Shown here: positions 4,971-56,247 of the stretch, in pieces | Position numbering within the stretch: the first letter of the stretch is position 1 | Layout: every line of letters begins with the position of its first letter | Assembly (NCBI GenBank): GCA_046263195.1 | Contig: JBHELG010000039.1 | Location: 4,906-68,905 of the forward strand | Length of the DNA: 64,000 bases | Direction: 5' to 3' | Origin: Nitriliruptorales bacterium | GTDB taxonomy: Bacteria; Actinomycetota; Nitriliruptoria; Nitriliruptorales; JAHWKO01 | Made by a program: the position numbers and the translations under genes | The notes under the pieces: model-generated | The model's database searches: none | What the model saw: the letters and a program-made list of their open reading frames with translations, nothing else | What the model was told of the DNA's origin: nothing

Positions 4971-6215
4971 CTACGCCACCGGCGTTCCTGTGGGACGGGC
5001 CGCTCGAACCGCCTCTAGGGAGGCGGAAAGCGCGGTTACCGCCAACCCGATCTCCTCGTCCGTGACCGTCAGCGGTGGAGCCAACCGGACGGCGTCAGGC
5101 CCGACCGCATTGACGATGAGAAACCGTTGGCGGCAGGCGGCTTCGACCTCCACAGCCACCCCGGCATCGAGTTCCAGGGCGAGCAGCAATCCCCTTCCCC
5201 GCACCCCGCTCGCGTACGGCACCTGTCCGACCAGGTCGAGGAGTCGCGAGGTCAGCGTCTCCCCCGCCGCGTCCGCGGCGGCAACCAGTCCTTCACCCTC
5301 CATGACGTCGAGCACAGCGAACGCTGCCGCACAGGACAAGGGGTTGCCGCCGAAGGTGGACGCGTGATCCCCGGGTTGGAAGACGTCCGCGGCGCCACCG
5401 CGGGCGACGCAGGCCCCGATGGGCAGGCCATTCCCGAGCGCCTTCGCGATGGTCACCACATCGGGGGTTACCGGGGTGTGCTGCCAGGCGAACCACTTGC
5501 CAGTTCGGCCCATGCCCGTCTGCACCTCGTCGATGATGAGCAGCGCTCCGTGGCGGTCGCAGGACTCCCTGGCCGCGACGAGCACGGCGTCGGATACCGG
5601 ACGCACGCCTCCCTCACCCTGGACCACTTCGAGCAGGACGGCGCAGGTGTCTTCACCCACGGCCGCGCGCAACGCCTCCGGGCTGTCGAAGGCGACGTGG
5701 TCGACGTAGCCCGCGAGAGGTTCGAACGGCTCATGCTTCGCCAGCTGACCGGTCGCCTCGAGCGTTGCGAGGGTGCGGCCATGAAAGGACCCCTCGAGGG
5801 TCACGACCCGGTACTTCCCGGGATGTCGCTCACGTCCGTGGCGACGAGCCAGCTTGATCGCGGCCTCGTTCGCCTCGGCCCCGCTGTTGCAGAGGAAGGC
5901 CTTGCCGTCGGGCCAGCCGAGGACGTCAGCGAGCCGCTCCGCCAGAGCGACCGCCGGCTCGGTGAGGAAGAGGTTCGAGGTGTGCATGAGCGTCGCGGCC
6001 TGTCTGGTGACGGCCGCAGAGACCGCAGGATGGGCATGACCGAGGCTCGTCACCCCCAGCCCGCAGAGAAAGTCGAGGTACGCCCGCCCCTCGGCGTCGA
6101 ACAGAGCGGAACCCTGGCCGCGAACGAATGCGAGCGGCGGCAGCCGATAGGTCGGGAGGCCGTGCTTGGCCCAGCGGGCCTGCAAGTCGGCGAGGTGAGC
6201 GGCGGCGTCCGCCAC
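4971..6215 (-). CDS. argD: acetylornithine aminotransferase
   Basis: Class-III aminotransferase pattern (LIIDEVQTGMGRTGKWFA, TFGGNPL); arg operon context. Confidence 0.9.
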   Translation of the reverse strand: MADAAAHLADLQARWAKHGLPTYRLPPLAFVRGQGSALFDAEGRAYLDFLCGLGVTSLGHAHPAVSAAVTRQAATLMHTSNLFLTEPAVALAERLADVLGWPDGKAFLCNSGAEANEAAIKLARRHGRERHPGKYRVVTLEGSFHGRTLATLEATGQLAKHEPFEPLAGYVDHVAFDSPEALRAAVGEDTCAVLLEVVQGEGGVRPVSDAVLVAARESCDRHGALLIIDEVQTGMGRTGKWFAWQHTPVTPDVVTIAKALGNGLPIGACVARGGAADVFQPGDHASTFGGNPLSCAAAFAVLDVMEGEGLVAAADAAGETLTSRLLDLVGQVPYASGVRGRGLLLALELDAGVAVEVEAACRQRFLIVNAVGPDAVRLAPPLTVTDEEIGLAVTALSASLEAVRAARPTGTPVA

Positions 6216-6226
6216 ACGAGCTCCGA

Positions 6227-7201
6227 TCAGTCAGGGTGTCCGGGGCGCGGCCAGGCTCCGCGGTGGGGACCGGGCCCGCGCCAGTCGCCGGTGCCGTTCG
6301 TCGTGAGCCCGGCGGTGATCATGGTCCCGACCCCCTCGTCGGTGAAGATCTCCAAGAGGATCGCATGGAGCACGCGGCCGTCGATGATGTGCGCGCGAGG
6401 GACGCCGTCCTTCAGCGCCGCCACGATAGAAGTAACCTTCGGACGCATCCCCGCTCCGACCTCGCCTGAGGCGAGCATCGCCTCGAGCTCGTCGAGTCTC
6501 ACCTCGCTCAGCAGGGAAGAGTCGTCACGCACGTCCCGGTACAAGCCGGCGACGTCCGTCAGGTAGACGAGCTTTGCCGCGCCGAGCGCGGCGGCGATGG
6601 CCCCGGCCGCAAGGTCAGCGTTTACGTTGCGGTCGACTCCGTCGCGGTCGCGACCCACGGTTGCTACCACCGGCAGGAAGCCGTCGGCGAGCAACCGGCG
6701 CACCAACGTCGGGTCGACGTCCTCGACCTCGCCCACCCGGCCGAGGTCCTCCCCCCCAGGCCCTCGGGCTGGCCTCAACGTCAGGAGCTTGCCGTCGGTC
6801 CCCGCCAGCCCGACCACCGGTGCGCCCGCAGCCTGGACGAGGCCGACGAGTTCCGGGTTGATCCGTCCCAGTAGGACCATTCGGACGACATCCATGGTCG
6901 CTTCGTCGGTGACCCGCATCCCACCGACGAAGGTCGTGGGCAGTCCGAGCCGGCCGGAGACCTCGCTTATCTGCGGGCCGCCCCCATGGACCACGACCGG
7001 GCGCAGCCCGACGAAGTGGAGAAGCGCCACGTCTGCGGCAAAGGAGCGCTTCAGGTCTTCGTCACTCATGGCGCTCCCGCCATACTTGATCACGACCGTC
7101 TCGCCGTGGAAGCGGGTGATCCATGGCAGCGCCTCGCGCAGCACCGCAGCCTTCGCTTGGGCGGTGCTCGCGAGGATGTTGGGGGGGGTGACCGCTGCCA
7201 T
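6227..7201 (-). CDS. argB: acetylglutamate kinase
   Basis: The ORF-track entry (to 7816) was trimmed to ATG at 7201, which follows AAGGAGGA by 6 nt. VVIKYGGSAM motif. The removed N-terminal part is Arg-rich and overlaps argJ. Confidence 0.9.
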   Translation of the reverse strand: MAAVTPPNILASTAQAKAAVLREALPWITRFHGETVVIKYGGSAMSDEDLKRSFAADVALLHFVGLRPVVVHGGGPQISEVSGRLGLPTTFVGGMRVTDEATMDVVRMVLLGRINPELVGLVQAAGAPVVGLAGTDGKLLTLRPARGPGGEDLGRVGEVEDVDPTLVRRLLADGFLPVVATVGRDRDGVDRNVNADLAAGAIAAALGAAKLVYLTDVAGLYRDVRDDSSLLSEVRLDELEAMLASGEVGAGMRPKVTSIVAALKDGVPRAHIIDGRVLHAILLEIFTDEGVGTMITAGLTTNGTGDWRGPGPHRGAWPRPGHPD

Positions 7202-49047: not shown

Positions 49048-50174
49048 CCGGCTCCGCCTTTCTCTCGTTGCACGAGGTGGGAGAAACGCTCGAACAAGTA
49101 TTCCGCGTCGTGGGGTCCGGGGGCTGCCTCCGGGTGGTACTGCACGCTGAACGCAGGCAGGTCGCGGCACACGAGACCTTCACAGGTGCCGTCGTTGAGG
49201 TTGAGATGACTGACCTCGACCTGGCCGTGCTCCGCCGTCTCGAACAGCTGAGCTTCGACCTGTTCGCCAAGCGAGGCAGCATCGACCGCGAACCCGTGGT
49301 TGTGGCTGGTTATCTCCACCGTCCCGTCGACCCGTCGCAGGACCGGCTGGTTCACGCCGCGGTGACCGAAGCGCAGCTTGTAGGTCTCCGCGCCCAGCGC
49401 ATGCCCGAGCAGTTGCGATCCGAGGCAGATCCCGAACACGGGGACCTTGCCGAGCAGGCGGCCCAGCGTGGCGATGCCGCCCTTGACTGCGGCGGGATCC
49501 CCAGGGCCATTCGAGACGAAGACCCCGTCCGGGTCGTGGGCGAGCACCTCCTCCTCGCTGGCGCTGGCCGGCAGGACCACGACCTCGAAGCCGTGACGGG
49601 CGAGATTGCGCAGGATCGAGCGCTTCACGCCGAAGTCGAGGGTCACGGCCCGATGCCGGCCTCCTGCGTGCCACAGGTAGGCGGCCGGGGTCGTGACCTG
49701 GCCGGTGAGATCCTGTCCGATCATTCCCGGGCTTTCGAGGACTCGGGCGTGCAGGGCATCGACGTCGAGGATCTCTGTCGAGATCCCGCAGCGCATCGCC
49801 CCCTGCTCTCGGATGCGTCGGGTCAGTCGGCGCGTGTCCACCCCCTCGATTGCGACCACTCCGGCCTCGCGCAGGGCGGTGGGAAGATCCCCTTCTGCCC
49901 GCCAGCTCGACGCCCGTCGGGCCGCCTCCCGCACGACGAACCCCGCCACCTGGATGCGGTCCGACTCGGCGTCCGCCGGGTTCATGCCGTAGTTGCCCAC
50001 GTGGGTGGCGGTCATCGCGACGACCTGACCGCGGTAAGAGGGGTCGGTGAGCACCTCCTGGTAGCCGGCCATGCTCGTGTTGAACACGGCTTCGCCGAAG
50101 CTCGTCCCCTCGGCCCCGAACGAGGTGCCACGGAAGGCACTGCCCTCCTCGAGCACCAACACGGCGTCTCTCAC
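49044..50174 (-). CDS. carA: carbamoyl-phosphate synthase small subunit
   Basis: GATase motifs GICLGSQLL and SHNHGFAV; GTGA overlap with the upstream ORF. Confidence 0.95.
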   Translation of the reverse strand: MRDAVLVLEEGSAFRGTSFGAEGTSFGEAVFNTSMAGYQEVLTDPSYRGQVVAMTATHVGNYGMNPADAESDRIQVAGFVVREAARRASSWRAEGDLPTALREAGVVAIEGVDTRRLTRRIREQGAMRCGISTEILDVDALHARVLESPGMIGQDLTGQVTTPAAYLWHAGGRHRAVTLDFGVKRSILRNLARHGFEVVVLPASASEEEVLAHDPDGVFVSNGPGDPAAVKGGIATLGRLLGKVPVFGICLGSQLLGHALGAETYKLRFGHRGVNQPVLRRVDGTVEITSHNHGFAVDAASLGEQVEAQLFETAEHGQVEVSHLNLNDGTCEGLVCRDLPAFSVQYHPEAAPGPHDAEYLFERFSHLVQREKGGAG

Positions 50175-50674
50175 GGGCGCGCCTTCGCGACATCCCGCAG
50201 CCTCCCGGCGAGATCGCCCGCCTGCTCTCTGCTACCGCAGACGAAGCCGGAATCGAGCTCGACCGGTCTGCTGTCGGTCGTGCTGTGCAGCCAGCGGACG
50301 ACGACGGTGCGTCGGCGCGGGGCGGTCTGGGCAGCGTGACCACGCTCGACTCCAACCGCGAGGATCGGTGCGACCCGGACGACCGGACCGCGGTCGCGGG
50401 CGAAGACCAGACTCCCCTGCTCGACCCAGAGCGCGCACGGTCCCGGGCCGAAGAGCCCCCCCAGGGCCACCCGATCGATCCAGTTGCCGTCCCTGGTCGT
50501 GCCGGTGTAGCGGACGATGGCGTCCGGAAGGCGGTTCGGACGGGGACGGGCCGGCAGCGGCACATAACGGGCCTCGTCGTGCGCGCGCCGGCGGAGGTAG
50601 CCACGCCACATGCCATAGGTCGCGAACGCGACGGGCAGAACGAGGAAAAGGAACGTGGCGCCCAGACGTTGCAT
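50171..50674 (-). CDS. hypothetical membrane-anchored protein between pyrC and carA
   Basis: One N-terminal TM segment. GGGAGGGGG SD. The start overlaps the pyrC stop (TGATG). In mycobacteria a hypothetical gene occupies the same pyrC-carA position (from memory). Confidence 0.55.
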   Translation of the reverse strand: MQRLGATFLFLVLPVAFATYGMWRGYLRRRAHDEARYVPLPARPRPNRLPDAIVRYTGTTRDGNWIDRVALGGLFGPGPCALWVEQGSLVFARDRGPVVRVAPILAVGVERGHAAQTAPRRRTVVVRWLHSTTDSRPVELDSGFVCGSREQAGDLAGRLRDVAKARP

Positions 50675-52014: not shown

Positions 52015-52967
52015 GCGAGACTCCCGGTGGTGGCTAGCTCCGCTCGGGGTCCGAGCGACAGGTAGAGCACGGCCATGCGCACAGCGATGCCGTTCGTGAC
52101 TTGGTCGGTGATGACGGCACGTTCGCTGTCCGCGACGTCGGGGGCGATTTCGACGCCGCGATTCATGGGACCCGGGTGCATGACGATGGCATGGTCGGGC
52201 AGGCGCGCAAGACGCCCCGCATCCAGCCCCCAGAAGCGGGCGTATTCGCGGGTGGTCGGGAAGAAGTGGTGGGTCATCCGCTCCCGTTGGACTCGTAGCA
52301 CGTACAAGACGTCGAGGTCGCCGAGGACGTGGTCGAGGTCCGTCGCTACCCGTGCCTGCCAGTTCTCAACGCCGGGAGGCAGGAGGGTCGGCGGAGCGAC
52401 GAGGGTGACGCGCGCCCCGACGAGGTTGAGCGCCTGAACCTCGCTGCGCGCCACGCGCGAGTGCAGGATGTCCCCCACGATCGCGACGTTCAGGCCGGCG
52501 AGGCGGCCGAGGTGACGACGCATCGTGTACAGGTCGAGCAGGGCTTGAGTGGGGTGCTGATGGGCGCCGTCCCCCGCGTTGATCACCTTCGCGTCGACCC
52601 AGCGGGTGAGCTGCAGTGGAACGCCCGCTGAGGACGAACGCACGACGATGACGTCGACACCCATGGCTTTCAGCGTGAGCGCCGTGTCTTTGAAGGACTC
52701 GCCTTTGCTGACGCTCGAACCCCGAGTCGTGAAGTTGATGACGTCTGCGGAAAGCCGTTTTGCTGCGAGCTCGAAGCTGATGCGGGTGCGCGTCGAATCC
52801 TCGAGGAAGAGGTTGCAGACGGTGCGTCCGCGCAGGGTGGGAACCTTCTTGATCGGCCGCTCGGCTATCGAGCGCAACTGCTCGGCGGAGTCGAGGATGG
52901 CTTCGACCTGATCGAGGTCAAGGTCGGTCACGCTGAGAAGGTGCGGGAGGGCTTTCATTGCTCCCAT
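52011..52967 (-). CDS. pyrB: aspartate carbamoyltransferase catalytic subunit
   Basis: [15 protein letters not shown] and the LP..MHPGP-type motif. An alternative ATG at 52958 would give an ATGA overlap with the pyrR stop. Confidence 0.93.
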
Positions 52968-53527
52968 CCCAGGTCAGACGGGCCGGCACCCCGGGCCGGG
53001 CACGGGATGACGTCGACCGCGTCCGTGCCGTCGACCTCGGCGAGGCGGACCCGCACGTCCTCTTTCCGTGAGGTCGGCAGGTTCTTGCCCACGTGGTCCG
53101 CCCGGATGGGCAGCTCGCGATGCCCGCGGTCGATGAGCACCGCGAGACGTACCGCACGGGGACGGCCGACCTCCACGACCTCCTCGAGTGCGGCCCGCAC
53201 CGTGCGACCCGTGTAGAGGACGTCGTCGACGAGCACCACGACGCGGCCATTCACGTCGCAGGGAAAGGAGGTCTCGCCGAGAGGCAACGGGCCACGCCGC
53301 GACAGGTCGTCACGGTGAAGGGTGATGTCGAGCGAGCCGTGGGGGACGACGACGCCCTCGATCTCTTTTATGTGACCGGCGAGACGGGCGGCGAGGGGGA
53401 CGCCCCGGGTTTGGATACCCATGAGGACGAGGTCGCTGGCGCCTTGGTTGCGTTCGACGATCTCGTGGGCGATACGGCTGACGCTGCGGGCGATGTCGCC
53501 GGATTCGAGCACGCGCCTCGGCGCCAC
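52955..53527 (-). CDS. pyrR: bifunctional pyrimidine operon regulator / uracil phosphoribosyltransferase PyrR
   Basis: [22 protein letters not shown] motif; 190 aa; GTG start. Confidence 0.92.
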
Positions 53528-53533
53528 ACGGGT

Positions 53534-53568
53534 CCCTTCCCGGCCTCTCGGGACCGGTCCTTAAAGGG
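53534..53568 (-). promoter_or_regulatory. putative PyrR-binding RNA hairpin that includes the pyrR Shine-Dalgarno sequence
   Basis: mRNA sense: CCCUUUAAGGACCGGUCCCGAGAGGCCGGGAAGGG, followed by ACCC and then the GUG start. The loop UCCCGAGAGGCC resembles the PyrR binding-loop consensus (A/G)UCCAGAGAGGCU. The CCCUU/AAGGG and CCGG/CCGG stems include the GGGAAGGG SD. Confidence 0.55.
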
Positions 53569-53627
53569 TGGTCGGCGGCCGCAGGCTACCCGCCCCCCTC
53601 GTCGGCGCCAAACACGGAGCCTGGTGC

Positions 53628-54008
53628 CTAGCGGAAGGCGGGCAGATCGTAGGGACGCACGGTGCTGCGGCCGTTCGCGCGCGCGCGCTCGATGCCCTCG
53701 TTCAGTATCGCCTCGACGTGACCGTTCAAGGCGTCGATGAGAGTCGAGTCGACGCGCAGGTCCGAGGCGCGTATGAGCTGCTGAACCCGGCTCGCCACGG
53801 CGACTCCCGTCGAGTCGTCCAAACGCGGCCCGGCAAGATCCTCGGGACGAACCGTCGAACGCCCGTTCTTACGTGCCCGGTTCATGGCGCCGTTCAGGAG
53901 TGCGACCACCCGGTTGTGCAGTGCATCGGGGAGTTGCGAGTCGGTCCGCAGCTCGGCTCCGCCAATGACGTCTCTCACCTTACTCACCGTGACGAGTAGC
54001 TCTGCCAT
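53628..54008 (-). CDS. tandem (doublet) histone-fold protein, 126 aa
   Basis: There are two internal repeats, each ending in NGRSTVRP(E/Y)DL. Each half aligns by eye with archaeal histone HMfB (GAERVSDD...[14 protein letters not shown]). AGGAAGGA SD lies 8 nt upstream of the ATG. Confidence 0.55.
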   Translation of the reverse strand: MAELLVTVSKVRDVIGGAELRTDSQLPDALHNRVVALLNGAMNRARKNGRSTVRPEDLAGPRLDDSTGVAVASRVQQLIRASDLRVDSTLIDALNGHVEAILNEGIERARANGRSTVRPYDLPAFR

Positions 54009-54043
54009 GATCGAAATCCTTCCTGAGAGTTCGGGCGGCCACC

Positions 54044-54475
54044 TCAGCCACCCTCGAGCCGGCTGGTTCTCAGCACGGCTGACAGCACCCCGTTGATGTA
54101 GCGGGGAGAGTCCTCCGTCGACATCTCCTTGGCAAGCTCCACAGCCTCATCTATGACGACTGCTGCTGGCGTGTCTGTCGCCTCGAGCAGCTCGTAGACC
54201 GCAAGTCGCAGAATGTTGCGGTCGATGATGGGCATGCGCGACACCGTCCAGCCATGTGCGTGGCTCGCGATGATCACGTCGATCTCCTCGCAGCCCCGGG
54301 CGACGCCGTGGATGAGAACACGGGCGAAGTCGTCGAGTGGGTCAGCTTGAGGATCGCTGATCGTACGCTCGAGCGTGTCCGTGATGTCTCGGCGGCGCAC
54401 GTCCGCCTCGTAGAGCACTTCGAGGGCGCGTCGTCGCGCCTCGTGGCGTGGCAGGTGCACAGCTTCCGTGGTCAC
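54044..54475 (-). CDS. nusB: transcription antitermination factor NusB
   Basis: 143 aa; RRRALEVLYEAD... and VVIDEAVELAK patterns; efp-nusB synteny. Confidence 0.9.
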   Translation of the reverse strand: MTTEAVHLPRHEARRRALEVLYEADVRRRDITDTLERTISDPQADPLDDFARVLIHGVARGCEEIDVIIASHAHGWTVSRMPIIDRNILRLAVYELLEATDTPAAVVIDEAVELAKEMSTEDSPRYINGVLSAVLRTSRLEGG

Positions 54476-54476
54476 C

Positions 54477-55034
54477 TCAGGCTCGGGAGAGGTATTCGCC
54501 TGTGCGGGTGTCGACCTTCACCTTGTCGCCCGCGTCGACGAACAGAGGGACCTGGATTTCGACGCCGGTTTCGAGGCGCGCCGGCTTGGTCGCGTTCTGC
54601 ACGGTGTTGCCGGCGACGCCTGGTTCGGTCTCGAGGACTTCGAGGGTGACCGAGGCTGGAAGTTCGACCCCGACGATGCGTCCCTCGTAGTCGAGGATGC
54701 CAATGGTGTCCCCCTCCCGCAGCCAGAATTGAGCATCTCCGACGGCATCCTGGGGGATCTGATCCTGCTCGAACGTTTCGGTGTCCATGAATACGAACAT
54801 GGGACCGTCGCGGTAGAGAAACTGGAGCTCGCGTTTCTGCACGATGGCTTGCGGAACTTCTTCTCCGGCACGGAAGGTCTTGTCGAGTACCTTCCCGGTC
54901 TCGACGCTGCGTAGCTTCGTGCGCACGAACGCGCCGCCTTTGCCCGGCTTGACGTGCTGGAACTCGATCACCTGCATGAGACGGCCGTCGACGACGAGCG
55001 TCATGCCATTCTTCAGGTTGTTCGTCGAGACCAT
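54477..55034 (-). CDS. efp: elongation factor P
   Basis: VKPGKGGAFVRTKLRS loop motif; 185 aa. Confidence 0.95.
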   Translation of the reverse strand: MVSTNNLKNGMTLVVDGRLMQVIEFQHVKPGKGGAFVRTKLRSVETGKVLDKTFRAGEEVPQAIVQKRELQFLYRDGPMFVFMDTETFEQDQIPQDAVGDAQFWLREGDTIGILDYEGRIVGVELPASVTLEVLETEPGVAGNTVQNATKPARLETGVEIQVPLFVDAGDKVKVDTRTGEYLSRA

Positions 55035-55062
55035 GTCGACTCCGGCTCCGACCGCAAGCCTG

Positions 55063-56247
55063 TCACAGAACCACGAGATCGTGCGAGGATGAGGTGAGGA
55101 TGTCGGGCGGACCGGTCACGGTCACGACCACGGTGTCCTCTATGCGGACCCCTCCGACTCCAGCAAGATACACGCCAGGCTCGACCGTGACCGTCATGCC
55201 CGGCTCGAGGTTAGCACGGCCCCCCTCCGCGAGGGTTGGCCACTCGTGTATTGCCAGCCCCACACCGTGCCCCGTCGGATGCAGGAACTGCTTGCCGCGG
55301 CCTGCGGCCGCGATAGGTTCCCGGCAGGCCCGGTCGACTTCACCCACCGCGACACCCGCCAGGGTTGCCGCCACTCCCGCAGCCTGGGCGCAGCGGACGA
55401 GGTCGTAGACGGCTCGGAGTTCCGGACCGGGGTCGCCGAGGGCGACAGTGCGGCTCATGTCAGCGTGATAGCCGCCGTAGCGCGCCCCGAAATCGAGCTT
55501 GAGAAGGTCACCCGGGCGTAGCTCGCGAGTGGTTGGGCGATGGTGGGGAATGGCGCTGTTGGGTCCCGAGGCGACGATGGTGTCGAAGGCCGGGCTCTCC
55601 GCCCCGAGGTCGACCATGCACCGGTCGAGTGCCACGGCCACAGCGCGCTCGTTAGCCCCGGGGCGCAGCGAGCCGAGCACATGCTCGAACGTCGCGACCG
55701 TGATGGCACATGCGGCGCGGATGGCGGCAAGCTCATGTTCGTCTTTCACCGCCCGCAACGCTTCGACCTGTCCTGACGCTGGGCGCGCGTCGATGCCTTC
55801 TTCTCGAGCTTTGCCACGCAGGCTCTCCCCGGCATCCCAGGAGAGGTGGTCAGCTTCGAACCCGACCGTTGCTAGTCCCGCTCTGGAGAGTCGCCGGACG
55901 ATGCGGTCCGGAACGCCCGAGCGCAGCGTCACGAGGTCCAAGCCGGGGGCCTCGGCGTGCGCCTGAGTCGTGTAGCGAGAGTCGGTGAAAAGGACGTCGA
56001 GTTCACCGTCGCATGTCACGAGCACGCGACCATTCGTGCCCCTGAAGCCGGTGAGCCAGCGGACGTTGCGCAGATCGGTGACGTAGAGGGCTTCCAGTTC
56101 TCGCTCCGCGAGTCTGGCACGGAGGCGATCACGGCGCCGCCGATGGTCGACAGGCGGCGGGAGGGCGGGAAAATCGGGGCACGCCGACGCAGGCGGCGGG
56201 AGGGTGGGAAAATCGGGATACGCCGCCGGTTCAGCGCCGGATGTCAC
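55063..56247 (-). CDS. M24-family Xaa-Pro aminopeptidase/dipeptidase
   Basis: HPTGHGVGLAIHEWP and VEPGVY metal-ligand motifs. GTGA overlap with the aroQ stop. The N-terminus carries a 13-aa tandem duplication. Confidence 0.85.
   Translation of the reverse strand: MTSGAEPAAYPDFPTLPPPASACPDFPALPPPVDHRRRRDRLRARLAERELEALYVTDLRNVRWLTGFRGTNGRVLVTCDGELDVLFTDSRYTTQAHAEAPGLDLVTLRSGVPDRIVRRLSRAGLATVGFEADHLSWDAGESLRGKAREEGIDARPASGQVEALRAVKDEHELAAIRAACAITVATFEHVLGSLRPGANERAVAVALDRCMVDLGAESPAFDTIVASGPNSAIPHHRPTTRELRPGDLLKLDFGARYGGYHADMSRTVALGDPGPELRAVYDLVRCAQAAGVAATLAGVAVGEVDRACREPIAAAGRGKQFLHPTGHGVGLAIHEWPTLAEGGRANLEPGMTVTVEPGVYLAGVGGVRIEDTVVVTVTGPPDILTSSSHDLVVL
56152..56225. repeat. 39-bp tandem duplication (two 35-bp near-identical cores) in the peptidase 5' end
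   Basis: AGGCGGCGGGAGGGCGGGAAAATCGGGGCACGCCG lies at 56152-56186 and AGGCGGCGGGAGGGTGGGAAAATCGGGATACGCCG at 56191-56225. They encode PDFPTLPPPASAC and PDFPALPPPVDHR. Confidence 0.8.

What the first reader, a model, noticed from the sequence alone, without database searches (positions are those of the whole stretch)
53628..54008. Bacterial tandem histone-fold (pseudo-dimer) protein between nusB and pyrR
The 126-aa protein consists of two similar halves: ...LVTVSKVRDVIGGAELRTDSQLPDALHNRVVALLNGAMNRARKNGRSTVRPEDL and ...AVASRVQQLIRASDLRVDSTLIDALNGHVEAILNEGIERARANGRSTVRPYDL. Each half aligns by eye with archaeal histone HMfB (...[53 protein letters not shown]), including the R-x-T-x-x-x-x-D signature at the alpha2/L2/alpha3 junction. 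Each half appears to lack a full alpha3 helix. Single-chain doublet histone folds occur in bacteria; the DUF1931 proteins of Aquifex and Thermus are examples as I recall. They are rare and functionally poorly characterised. This gene has a strong SD and sits among highly expressed core genes.
Basis: partly seen in the sequence, partly recalled or inferred. Interest (0 to 1): 0.6.

Follow-up and report, generated by a model that had tools for sequence, protein, structure and literature searches.

The report
Fused double histone-fold protein, actinobacterial
A small, well-conserved gene in an uncultured Nitriliruptorales actinobacterium encodes two short histone folds fused in one chain; each fold most resembles the recently described DNA-wrapping bacterial and archaeal "alpha3" histones, and the papers read here do not describe a fused form of that family.

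Summary
ORF 53628-54008 (-) encodes a 126-aa protein whose two halves are 54% identical (E=2e-17). It lies between nusB and pyrR behind a strong Shine-Dalgarno site. AlphaFold2 (pLDDT 92, pTM 0.84) gives two copies of alpha1-L1-alpha2-L2 plus a 3-residue alpha3, packed as an intramolecular histone pseudodimer. The best whole-chain matches are the M. kandleri histone doublet and single-chain H2A-H2B. Each half superposes on bacterial histones HBb and HLp (rmsd 1.0-1.7 A).

By sequence it is not an Aquifex/Thermus-type DUF1931 protein. The family profile hits the face-to-face (FtF) alpha3 histones HLp (5e-10) and HTkC (1e-8), but not 1R4V or 1WWI. Both halves keep the FtF signature R-x3-N-x-R-x-T-x4-D, an invariant L1 arginine and the alpha1 Ser-Lys/Arg motif.

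The family is small: 33 clusters, 4 of 185,579 species genomes, all Nitriliruptorales or Actinomycetota MAGs. It is syntenic throughout and under purifying selection (dN/dS 0.13-0.47).

Most likely it is a single-chain alpha3 histone that binds DNA. Two chains may form an FtF-like torus; I could not test this. Net charge is only about +1, which weakens the case for strong DNA binding. The published surveys I read do not describe alpha3 doublets, yet metagenomes hold many, arisen repeatedly. Verdict: new variant of a known kind, moderate interest.

The parts
53628..54008 (-). Gene for the 126-aa double histone-fold protein (stop codon included). It is identical to MFN2555997.1, 'hypothetical protein ABR592_03870 [Nitriliruptorales bacterium]'.
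   Evidence: ORF list; exact look-up; 32 homologous clusters of 123-127 aa; dN/dS 0.13-0.47.
53835..54008 (-). N-terminal alpha3-type histone fold, residues 1-58: alpha1 8-17, L1 with invariant R21-T-D23, alpha2 26-47, L2 N48-G-R50-x-T52-V-R-P, alpha3 55-57.
   Evidence: AF2 secondary structure. This half alone hits HLp at 4.1e-5, HTkC at 2.3e-3 and HBb at 8.5e-3. Conservation table.
53805..53834 (-). Linker, residues 59-68. It starts with the conserved A59-G60; the rest is variable and often acidic.
   Evidence: Alignment A1; conservation; pLDDT 84 for residues 61-70.
53643..53804 (-). C-terminal alpha3-type histone fold, residues 69-122: alpha1 72-81, L1 R85-V-D87, alpha2 90-111, L2 N112-G-R114-S-T116-V-R-P, alpha3 119-121.
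   Evidence: AF2; phmmer alignment to HLp 9QT0 residues 12-64; conservation.
53628..53642 (-). C-terminal tail P123-x-x-R126 plus the stop codon.
   Evidence: Alignment A1.
54017..54024 (-). Shine-Dalgarno site AGGAAGGA, 8 nt upstream of the ATG.
   Evidence: Sequence; an equivalent site occurs in all 8 orthologous loci.
54044..54475 (-). Context: nusB, directly upstream with only a 35-nt gap, so co-transcription is likely (inferred).
   Evidence: Pfam NusB 112.5 bits; same order in L001, L003, L081, L083-L086.
52955..53527 (-). Context: pyrR, directly downstream, first gene of pyrR-pyrB-pyrC-(bPH)-carA.
   Evidence: Pfam Pribosyltran 71.9 bits and the pyr genes; synteny.
53534..53568 (-). Context: PyrR-binding hairpin in the 100-nt spacer between the histone gene and pyrR. 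It marks the start of the separate pyr regulatory unit.
   Evidence: Partial match to Rfam RF00515, 26.5 bits, model positions 4-37, below the gathering score.

Best explanation
The gene encodes a single-chain (pseudodimeric) member of the alpha3-truncated histone family. Two short histone folds are joined by a 10-residue linker and fold onto each other in the usual histone handshake, so one chain replaces the homodimer formed by HBb, HLp or HTkC. I infer that it is a nucleoid-associated, sequence-nonspecific DNA-binding protein of a Nitriliruptorales clade. It would contact the DNA backbone through the two L1-L2 sites, each formed by L1 of one half and L2 of the other and each carrying an invariant Arg and Thr. 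It would also use the paired N-terminal ends of the two alpha1 helices (S9-K10 and S73-R74). Both halves keep the residues that build the dimer-dimer interface of face-to-face (FtF) histones. I therefore favour, at about 0.35 absolute, that two chains associate into an FtF-like four-fold torus that wraps roughly 60 bp, as shown for HLp. Otherwise it would act as a stand-alone DNA bender like HBb. Shown: the gene, the repeat, the fold, the family affinity, conservation and synteny. Inferred: DNA binding, oligomeric state and abundance.
For: Fold: the AF2 model has pLDDT 92.3 and pTM 0.84, with two copies of alpha1(10 aa)-L1-alpha2(22 aa)-L2-alpha3(3 aa). The whole chain matches histone doublets and single-chain H2A-H2B. 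Each half superposes on HBb (rmsd 1.0 A over 56 aa, 32% id) and HLp (rmsd 1.7 A, TM 0.90).

Sequence: the family profile hits HLp at 4.8e-10, HTkC at 9.5e-9 and HBb at 1.8e-6, and each half does so on its own.

Diagnostic residues: the FtF signature of Schwab 2024 (R48, N52, R54, T56, D61) and the HLp tetramer residues R49/N53/R55 correspond to R44/N48/R50/T52/D57 and R108/N112/R114/T116/D121. All are invariant in 33 sequences except position 108, which is R or K in 32 of 33. HBb-type dimers lack the R and N.

HLp DNA contacts: A13-S14-K15, K17, K21, T27 and T57 map to V8-S9-K10, R12 and T22/T52, and to A72-S73-R74, Q76, R80 and T116. Positions 12 and 74 are basic in 100% of members. R21 and R85 are invariant. 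By spacing they sit where HMfB has its R19 'sprocket' arginine; this is my own mapping.

Real, constrained gene: dN/dS is 0.13-0.47. The order efp-nusB-X-pyrR is conserved down to 55% identity. An ATG start and strong SD occur in all orthologues.

Precedent: HLp wraps about 60 bp as a tetramer and reorganises the E. coli nucleoid (PMC12701072).
Against: No experiment or expression data exist for this protein. Net charge is low: median +1 per chain (range -6 to +5), median pI 8.3. By the same calculation HBb and HMfB are +3 per monomer, or +6 per dimer. Acidic archaeal histones are still modelled with a basic DNA-binding ridge (PMC13260811), so this weakens the case without refuting it. One HLp contact position is Gly or Ser in the N half (G16). 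Neither half ends at alpha3 as HLp and D4GZE0 do, and the terminal carboxylate or last residue takes part in their tetramer interface. The linker and the P-x-x-R tail could therefore interfere with a torus. A multimer prediction could not be run. The family is known only from MAGs and short metagenomic contigs.
Confidence: 0.6

Rival explanations
1. A histone-fold scaffold that does not bind DNA, as proposed for the Aquifex/Thermus DUF1931 double histones. The conserved L1/L2 residues would then serve fold stability or protein-protein contacts.
For: Net charge is near zero across the family. Bacterial double histone folds described so far are said to lack DNA-binding residues and have no known role (PMC13088155; PMC11390915). 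Pfam assigns the protein to DUF1931. Some relatives carry signal peptides, so this fold is evidently used outside the nucleoid too.
Against: Unlike Aq_328-type proteins, it keeps the RxTxxxxD motif, the L1 arginine and the alpha1 Ser-Lys/Arg motif in both halves, all invariant or nearly so. Its nearest characterised relatives are all proven DNA binders. No sequence relation to 1R4V or 1WWI was detectable.
Confidence: 0.2
2. A locus-linked factor: either a specific regulator of the adjacent pyr operon or other genes, or a partner of NusB/EF-P in transcription-translation, possibly binding RNA.
For: It always lies directly downstream of efp-nusB on the same strand, and next to pyrR in every locus whose contig extends beyond the gene; the nusB gap is 35 nt in the window. 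In Streptomyces the same neighbourhood holds the global DNA-binding regulator BldD (PMC13118837).
Against: The synteny is sampled only within one order, so it may simply be inherited. The pyr operon has its own PyrR hairpin. Histone folds give no base-specific recognition in any characterised prokaryotic case. Singlet relatives, including one in Nitriliruptorales, sit in unrelated contexts.
Confidence: 0.1
3. A true member of the Aq_328/TTHA-type DUF1931 pseudodimer family, i.e. the reader's specific comparison is a homology statement.
For: Pfam DUF1931 scores above its gathering score (29.4 vs 21.8). Foldseek finds 1WWI (6e-3) and 1R4V (3e-2) over the whole chain.
Against: Each half alone is below the cut-off (14.9 and 17.9 bits), and both map to the same model segment 20-54/138. 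The family profile does not find 1R4V or 1WWI at E<=10, while alpha3 singlets score 1e-6 to 5e-10. HLp itself is labelled 'DUF1931 domain-containing', so the Pfam model also captures alpha3 histones. 1F1E and H2A-H2B fusions match better structurally than 1WWI and 1R4V.
Confidence: 0.05

Closest known systems
HLp of Leptospira perolatii (PDB 9QT0-2) and HTkC of Thermococcus kodakarensis (9F2C): face-to-face (FtF) alpha3 histones
   Same: These are the best sequence matches for the profile and for each half. They share the truncated alpha3, the short alpha2, the RD clamp and the R-x3-N-x-R tetramer-interface residues. HLp and the window protein also share the T-V-R-P L2 sequence.
   Different: They are 55-65-aa singlets that must homodimerise and then tetramerise. 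Here two folds are fused in one chain and have diverged to 54% identity, with half-specific conserved residues (G40 vs E104, E56 vs Y/H120). Neither fold ends at alpha3. L1 carries an invariant Arg where HLp has Met. Net charge is much lower.
HBb / Bd0055 of Bdellovibrio bacteriovorus (8FVX, 8CMP, 9EZZ): 'bacterial dimer' alpha3 histone
   Same: Best structural superposition of a single half (rmsd 1.0 A, 32% id). Same N-terminus (MAE-LV) and Ser-Lys motif.
   Different: HBb lacks the FtF R and N residues and has R-K-T. It is dimer-only and bends DNA. The protein here carries the FtF residues and R-S/K/A-T.
Aq_328 (1R4V) and T. thermophilus 1WWI: DUF1931 double histone folds
   Same: Bacterial, single-chain, two histone folds forming a pseudodimer of about the same overall shape (TM 0.53-0.59). 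Same Pfam label.
   Different: About 150 aa, and reported to lack DNA-binding residues. No detectable sequence relation to this family. The present protein looks like a separate, later fusion of alpha3 singlets.
Archaeal and viral histone doublets: HMk of Methanopyrus (1F1E), halobacterial HstA, Marseillevirus/Melbournevirus doublets
   Same: Top whole-chain structural matches. They follow the same principle: a fused pair allows the two halves to diverge.
   Different: Those are built from full-length nucleosomal-type folds with a long alpha3 that makes four-helix bundles. Sequence identity is only 10-18%.
58-aa Nitriliruptoraceae singlet histone listed by Hocher et al. 2023 (PULK01000049.1-3) and the singlet in L011
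   Same: Same order of bacteria, 47-62% identical to either half, same L-R-x-D and NGR-x-T-(V/L)-RP-x-DL motifs.
   Different: Single fold. The L011 gene lies after an Lhr-like helicase, not between nusB and pyrR.

Membership tests
Histone-fold superfamily | alpha1-L1-alpha2-L2-alpha3 unit with a long central helix, pairing head-to-tail with a second unit | tested here: met
   AF2 pLDDT 92.3 with the unit present twice. Foldseek probability 1.00 to many histone structures.
Double histone fold (single-chain pseudodimer) | Two histone folds in one polypeptide that pair intramolecularly | tested here: met
   Halves 54% identical. pTM 0.84 for the single chain. Best whole-chain hits are 1F1E and engineered or viral single-chain histone pairs. 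This rests on a predicted structure, not an experimental one.
alpha3-truncated histones (Schwab et al. 2024) | alpha3 reduced to 3-4 residues | tested here: met
   Helices 55-57 and 119-121 only; definition.
alpha3-truncated histones (Schwab et al. 2024) | alpha2 4-5 residues shorter than in nucleosomal histones | tested here: met
   alpha2 is 22 residues in both halves. The L1-Arg to L2-Arg spacing is 29, against 33 in HMfB (my count on the sequences).
alpha3-truncated histones (Schwab et al. 2024) | Sequence relatedness to the family, including R-x-T-x4-D | tested here: met
   Profile E-values 4.8e-10, 9.5e-9 and 1.8e-6 to HLp, HTkC and HBb. Motif invariant in both halves.
Face-to-face (FtF) subfamily | Conserved interface residues R48 and N52 (HLp R49, N53, R55) | tested here: met
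   R44/N48/R50 are invariant. N112/R114 are invariant and position 108 is R/K in 32 of 33; definitions.
Face-to-face (FtF) subfamily | Assembly of four folds into a closed torus through two equivalent interfaces | not testable with these tools
The fused N-half C-terminus and the P-x-x-R tail differ from HLp and D4GZE0, whose chains end at the interface.
Bacterial dimer subfamily (HBb type) | Absence of R48/N52; conserved R-K-T in L2 | tested here: not met
   R and N are present in both halves. The L2 position is K in 11 of 33 (N half) and S in 28 of 33 (C half); definition.
Pfam DUF1931 (PF09123) | Score at or above the gathering cut-off of 21.8 bits | tested here: inconclusive
   The whole protein scores 29.4 bits. 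This is the sum of two partial hits, 14.9 and 17.9 bits, both to model positions 20-54 of 138.
Aq_328/1WWI-type DUF1931 pseudodimers | Sequence relatedness to the solved members | tested here: not met
   Neither 1R4V nor 1WWI is found by the family profile at E<=10.
Aq_328/1WWI-type DUF1931 pseudodimers | Loss of the histone DNA-binding and assembly residues | tested here: not met
   R-x-T-x4-D, the L1 Arg and the alpha1 Ser-Lys/Arg are kept in both halves; the family trait is described.
Archaeal nucleosomal histones (HMfB type) | Full-length alpha3 (about 10 aa) forming a four-helix-bundle tetramer | tested here: not met
   alpha3 is 3 residues. The profile reaches HMfB only at E~0.1. BLASTP gives no alignment.

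The most novel reading that the evidence does not exclude
The doublet is the main chromatin protein of this Nitriliruptorales clade. Two chains would close into a four-fold, FtF-like torus whose two faces or interfaces are non-equivalent, because the fused halves have diverged (G40/E104, E56/Y120). That would give a polar, nucleosome-like particle wrapping about 60 bp. It would be the first obligately 'heterotypic' histone particle in bacteria, the first histone-based chromatin in Actinomycetota, and one instance of a fusion that has arisen repeatedly among alpha3 histones.
Probability: 0.2. Interest if true: 0.7.

Novelty: new variant of a known kind. Interest (0 to 1): 0.45.

Why it matters
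Bacterial histones have only recently been shown to be real chromatin proteins (HBb 2023-24, HLp 2025). In the surveys and the 2026 double-histone-fold review read here, bacterial double folds appear only as the Aquifex/Thermus type, described as lacking DNA-binding residues. This family shows a second kind of bacterial double fold. It is built from alpha3 histones and keeps the DNA-contact and face-to-face interface residues in both halves. It also sits in the vertically inherited core genome of an actinobacterial lineage. Actinobacteria are not among the phyla named as main alpha3-histone carriers, although one Nitriliruptoraceae singlet is listed in a supplementary table. Metagenomes also hold dozens of other alpha3 doublets that arose independently. 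Fusion therefore seems to be a recurrent evolutionary step for this fold, as in archaea and giant viruses. A natural single-chain FtF histone would be a convenient object for testing how the torus assembles and wraps DNA, and how asymmetry arises in histone particles.

Tried and rejected
(1) AF2 prediction of a two-chain assembly, using a 30-residue Gly-Ser linker on a 25-sequence concatenated alignment (A2).
(3) BLASTP of the C half against HMfB (sequence from memory): no alignment at E<=100.
(4) PHROGs: no family, so there is no sign of phage origin.
(5) NCBIfam: only a sub-threshold 'archaea_histone' hit, 23 bits against a cut-off of 50.
(6) Sigma-70 promoter and terminator scan of 53300-55200: no promoter, and no terminator between nusB, the gene and pyrR. 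This is uninformative in a 68% GC actinobacterium.
(7) Rfam at gathering threshold and tRNA scan of the window: nothing.
(8) Origin of the duplication: unit-level identities cannot resolve it. Consensus N vs consensus C is 0.55, the same as either half to outside singlets, including the Nitriliruptorales singlets (0.53-0.58) and P0039. A lineage-specific fusion is plausible but unproven.
(9) Second histone gene in the window: none in a six-frame HMM scan.
(10) Long opposite-strand ORFs overlapping the gene (53568-53999 +, 53093-53740 +): dismissed as high-GC artefacts, since conservation, SD and dN/dS all fit the minus-strand frame.

Full report
OBSERVATION. The ORF is at exactly 53628..54008 on the minus strand: 126 aa with an ATG start. 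Its two halves align without gaps at 54% identity (E=2e-17). Pfam confirms the neighbours, all on the minus strand: aroQ, an M24 peptidase, efp (54477-55034), nusB (54044-54475), the ORF, a PyrR-type phosphoribosyltransferase (52955-53527), pyrB, pyrC, a small bPH-domain ORF and carA. The site AGGAAGGA lies 8 nt before the ATG, and only 35 nt separate the ATG from the nusB stop. An equivalent Shine-Dalgarno site and an ATG start are present in all eight orthologous loci checked. The exact protein is in NCBI as MFN2555997.1, 'hypothetical protein [Nitriliruptorales bacterium]', on a 73-kb MAG contig. The window is 68% GC and holds no second histone-fold gene.

WHAT IT IS. Pfam gives DUF1931 above its cut-off (29.4 vs 21.8 bits), plus weak CBFD_NFYB_HMF, Histone and TFIID-18kDa hits. 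NCBIfam gives a sub-threshold 'archaea_histone' hit. An AlphaFold2 model built on 33 family sequences is confident (pLDDT 92.3, pTM 0.84). It consists of two copies of alpha1 (10 aa), L1, alpha2 (22 aa), L2 and a 3-residue alpha3. In Foldseek against the PDB, the whole chain matches the Methanopyrus histone doublet 1F1E best (3e-5). Engineered single-chain H2A-H2B, Melbournevirus doublets, 1WWI (6e-3) and 1R4V (3e-2) follow. Each half superposes on HBb (rmsd 1.0 A over 56 residues, 32% identity) and HLp (rmsd 1.7 A, TM 0.90). In the viral library the top hits are giant-virus histone doublets.

WHICH HISTONE FAMILY. Among PDB sequences, the protein and its family profile find only four close relatives. 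These are HLp of Leptospira perolatii (9QT0; 4.8e-10), HTkC of Thermococcus (9F2C; 9.5e-9) and two constructs of HBb of Bdellovibrio (1.8e-6). Archaeal nucleosomal histones appear at E 0.05-0.16. The Aquifex and Thermus DUF1931 proteins do not appear at E<=10. Each half on its own gives the same ranking. Both halves match the same segment (positions 20-54 of 138) of the Pfam DUF1931 model, and each alone is below the cut-off. HLp is itself deposited as a 'DUF1931 domain-containing protein', so the Pfam label does not separate the two groups.

Schwab et al. 2024 define 'alpha3 histones' by an alpha3 of 3-4 residues, an alpha2 shorter by 4-5 residues and the R-x-T-x4-D motif. All three features are met here. 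Within that family, face-to-face (FtF) histones are marked by R48 and N52 of their profile, and HBb-type dimers lack them. In HLp the tetramer interface uses R49, N53 and R55. Here the pattern R-x3-N-x-R-x-T-x4-D occurs in both halves: R44/N48/R50/T52/D57 and R108/N112/R114/T116/D121. It is invariant in 33 sequences except position 108, which is R or K in 32 of 33. By sequence the protein is therefore a fused pair of FtF-type alpha3 histones.

FAMILY, DISTRIBUTION, SELECTION. A search of 5.8 billion proteins found 32 further clusters of 123-127 aa (55-95% identity). Where named, they come from Actinomycetota or Nitriliruptorales MAGs, and JGI labels some 'histone H3/H4'. Among 185,579 species genomes, a motif-seeded scan found the orthologue in four, all Actinomycetota or Nitriliruptorales MAGs. 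The order aro genes, M24 peptidase, efp, nusB, doublet, pyrR, pyrB, pyrC, carA, carB is kept in every locus long enough to show it, down to 55% identity. Pairwise dN/dS is 0.13-0.47.

Within the family, N halves are 67% identical to each other and C halves likewise, while N to C is 47%. The fusion therefore predates the family's radiation, and both halves evolve at the same rate. Thirteen positions are conserved in both halves, essentially L1 (R-x-D) and L2 (N-G-R-x-T-V-R-P-x-D-L) plus a Ser at the start of alpha1. A few positions are conserved but differ between halves: G40/E104, T7/V71, A59/P123, and E56 vs Y/H120. This points to mild subfunctionalisation.

HOW IT LIKELY WORKS. HLp contacts the DNA backbone through A13-S14-K15, K17 and K21 (alpha1), T27 and G29 (L1), and T56 and T57 (L2). 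Using the HMMER alignments, these map to V8-S9-K10, R12, G16, T22, S24, S51 and T52 in the N half. In the C half they map to A72-S73-R74, Q76, R80, V86, S88, S115 and T116. Positions 12 and 74 are basic in every member, and position 10 in 79%. R21 and R85 are invariant. By spacing they occupy the place of the HMfB R19 'sprocket' arginine, which Hocher et al. report as not conserved in bacterial singlets. That mapping is my inference.

I therefore consider DNA binding as a nucleoid-associated architectural protein the most likely function (0.6). The retained FtF interface residues favour association of two chains into a four-fold torus that wraps DNA, as HLp does (about 0.35 absolute).

Several points count against this:
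- Net charge is low, median +1 with a range of -6 to +5, against +3 per monomer computed the same way for HBb and HMfB. However, acidic archaeal histones are still modelled with a basic DNA ridge.
- Neither half ends at alpha3, whereas the chain terminus takes part in the FtF interface in HLp and D4GZE0.
- I could not run a multimer prediction.

Rivals are a non-DNA-binding scaffold like the DUF1931 proteins (0.2), a locus-linked regulator or NusB/pyr-associated factor (0.1), and true Aq_328-family membership (0.05).

COMPARISON WITH WHAT IS KNOWN. Schwab's 17 categories of prokaryotic histones list double histones only as DUF1931 (Aq_328-like), Halo and Poseidoniia; there is no alpha3 doublet. 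The 2026 review of double histone folds lists only 1WWI- and 1R4V-type proteins for bacteria, and states that they lack DNA-binding residues. The 2026 archaeal survey describes acidic doublets with a median length of 143 aa whose solved example is the full-length M. kandleri doublet 1F1E; a rudimentary alpha3 is noted only for the 'miniature' cluster. Hocher et al. 2023 note singlet and doublet size classes and list one 58-aa Nitriliruptoraceae singlet in a supplementary table. A histone fold in this order is thus already catalogued, but the doublet is not.

A full HMMER scan of 1.84 billion representatives gave 813 hits at E<=1e-3. Of the 152 listed proteins outside the family, 56 have two alpha3 units. 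This share is inflated because a two-unit query favours doublets. In 21 of 92 units the best match anywhere is the protein's own other half, with up to 87% identity between halves. Fusion has therefore happened repeatedly. In the species-genome scan, the only cytoplasmic bacterial doublets found belong to the Nitriliruptorales family.

VERDICT. It is a new variant of a known kind. Function and oligomeric state are inferred, not shown. Interest is moderate (0.45).

Noticed in passing
window 53534-53568 (-): A hairpin matching the PyrR-binding site (Rfam RF00515, model positions 4-37, 26.5 bits, below the gathering score of 54) lies directly 5' of the pyrR GTG at 53527. This fits PyrR autoregulation of the pyr operon and suggests the histone gene and pyrR are separately controlled.
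   Followed up: partly
window 52955-55034 (efp-nusB-X-pyrR): In 929 Streptomyces genomes the same conserved neighbourhood (efp, nusB, pyrR, pyrB, pyrC, carA) holds the global developmental DNA-binding regulator bldD (PMC13118837). An unrelated DNA-binding protein thus occupies the corresponding neighbourhood in another actinobacterial lineage. This could be coincidence.
   Followed up: partly
P0034-P0038, P0040, P0043, P0044, P0049, P0050, P0065, P0066; L005 (Planctomycetota MAG) 6001-6348; L006 (Gammaproteobacteria MAG) 6001-6363: A clade of alpha3 histone-fold singlets and doublets carries N-terminal signal peptides (e.g. MTITAVFLALSMVMAFIPADANA/ARSSKPKEIVVVGSKVKEV...). Some also have an RRM domain (PF00076). 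These appear to be exported histone-fold proteins that keep the NGRSTVRPYDL ending. P0034 was seen on 24 contigs. I found no mention of exported histone folds in the papers read.
   Followed up: no
P0100 (149 aa), P0110 (141 aa), P0058, P0042 (representative library): Some alpha3 doublets have halves 85-87% identical, which indicates very recent internal duplications. Others form N-N/C-C orthologous sets. Fusion of alpha3 histones into doublets has therefore occurred many times independently.
   Followed up: partly
L011 6001-6174 (Nitriliruptorales MAG JAWVZB010000031.1): A 57-aa singlet alpha3 histone, 50-62% identical to either half of the doublet, lies immediately downstream of a 1547-aa Lhr-like helicase ORF, not at the nusB-pyrR locus. 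Whether any genome carries both the singlet and the doublet is unknown.
   Followed up: partly
window 50171-50674 (-): A 167-aa ORF with a bacterial PH-like domain (PF25362 bPH_11, 43.7 bits) is inserted between pyrC and carA, overlapping both by 1-4 nt. It is apparently part of the pyr operon.
   Followed up: no
L012 151-516 and L041 2644-2805 (archaeal MAG CAZNYH01); L054 (Nanoarchaeia MAG): One uncultured archaeon carries both an alpha3 doublet (29% identical to the query) and an alpha3 singlet on different contigs. In a Nanoarchaeia MAG, two singlets lie within one 12-kb locus.
   Followed up: no
window 53093-53740 (+), 53568-53999 (+): Long ORFs (215 and 143 aa) on the opposite strand overlap pyrR and the histone gene. 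They are typical high-GC antisense artefacts and have no support from conservation.
   Followed up: yes
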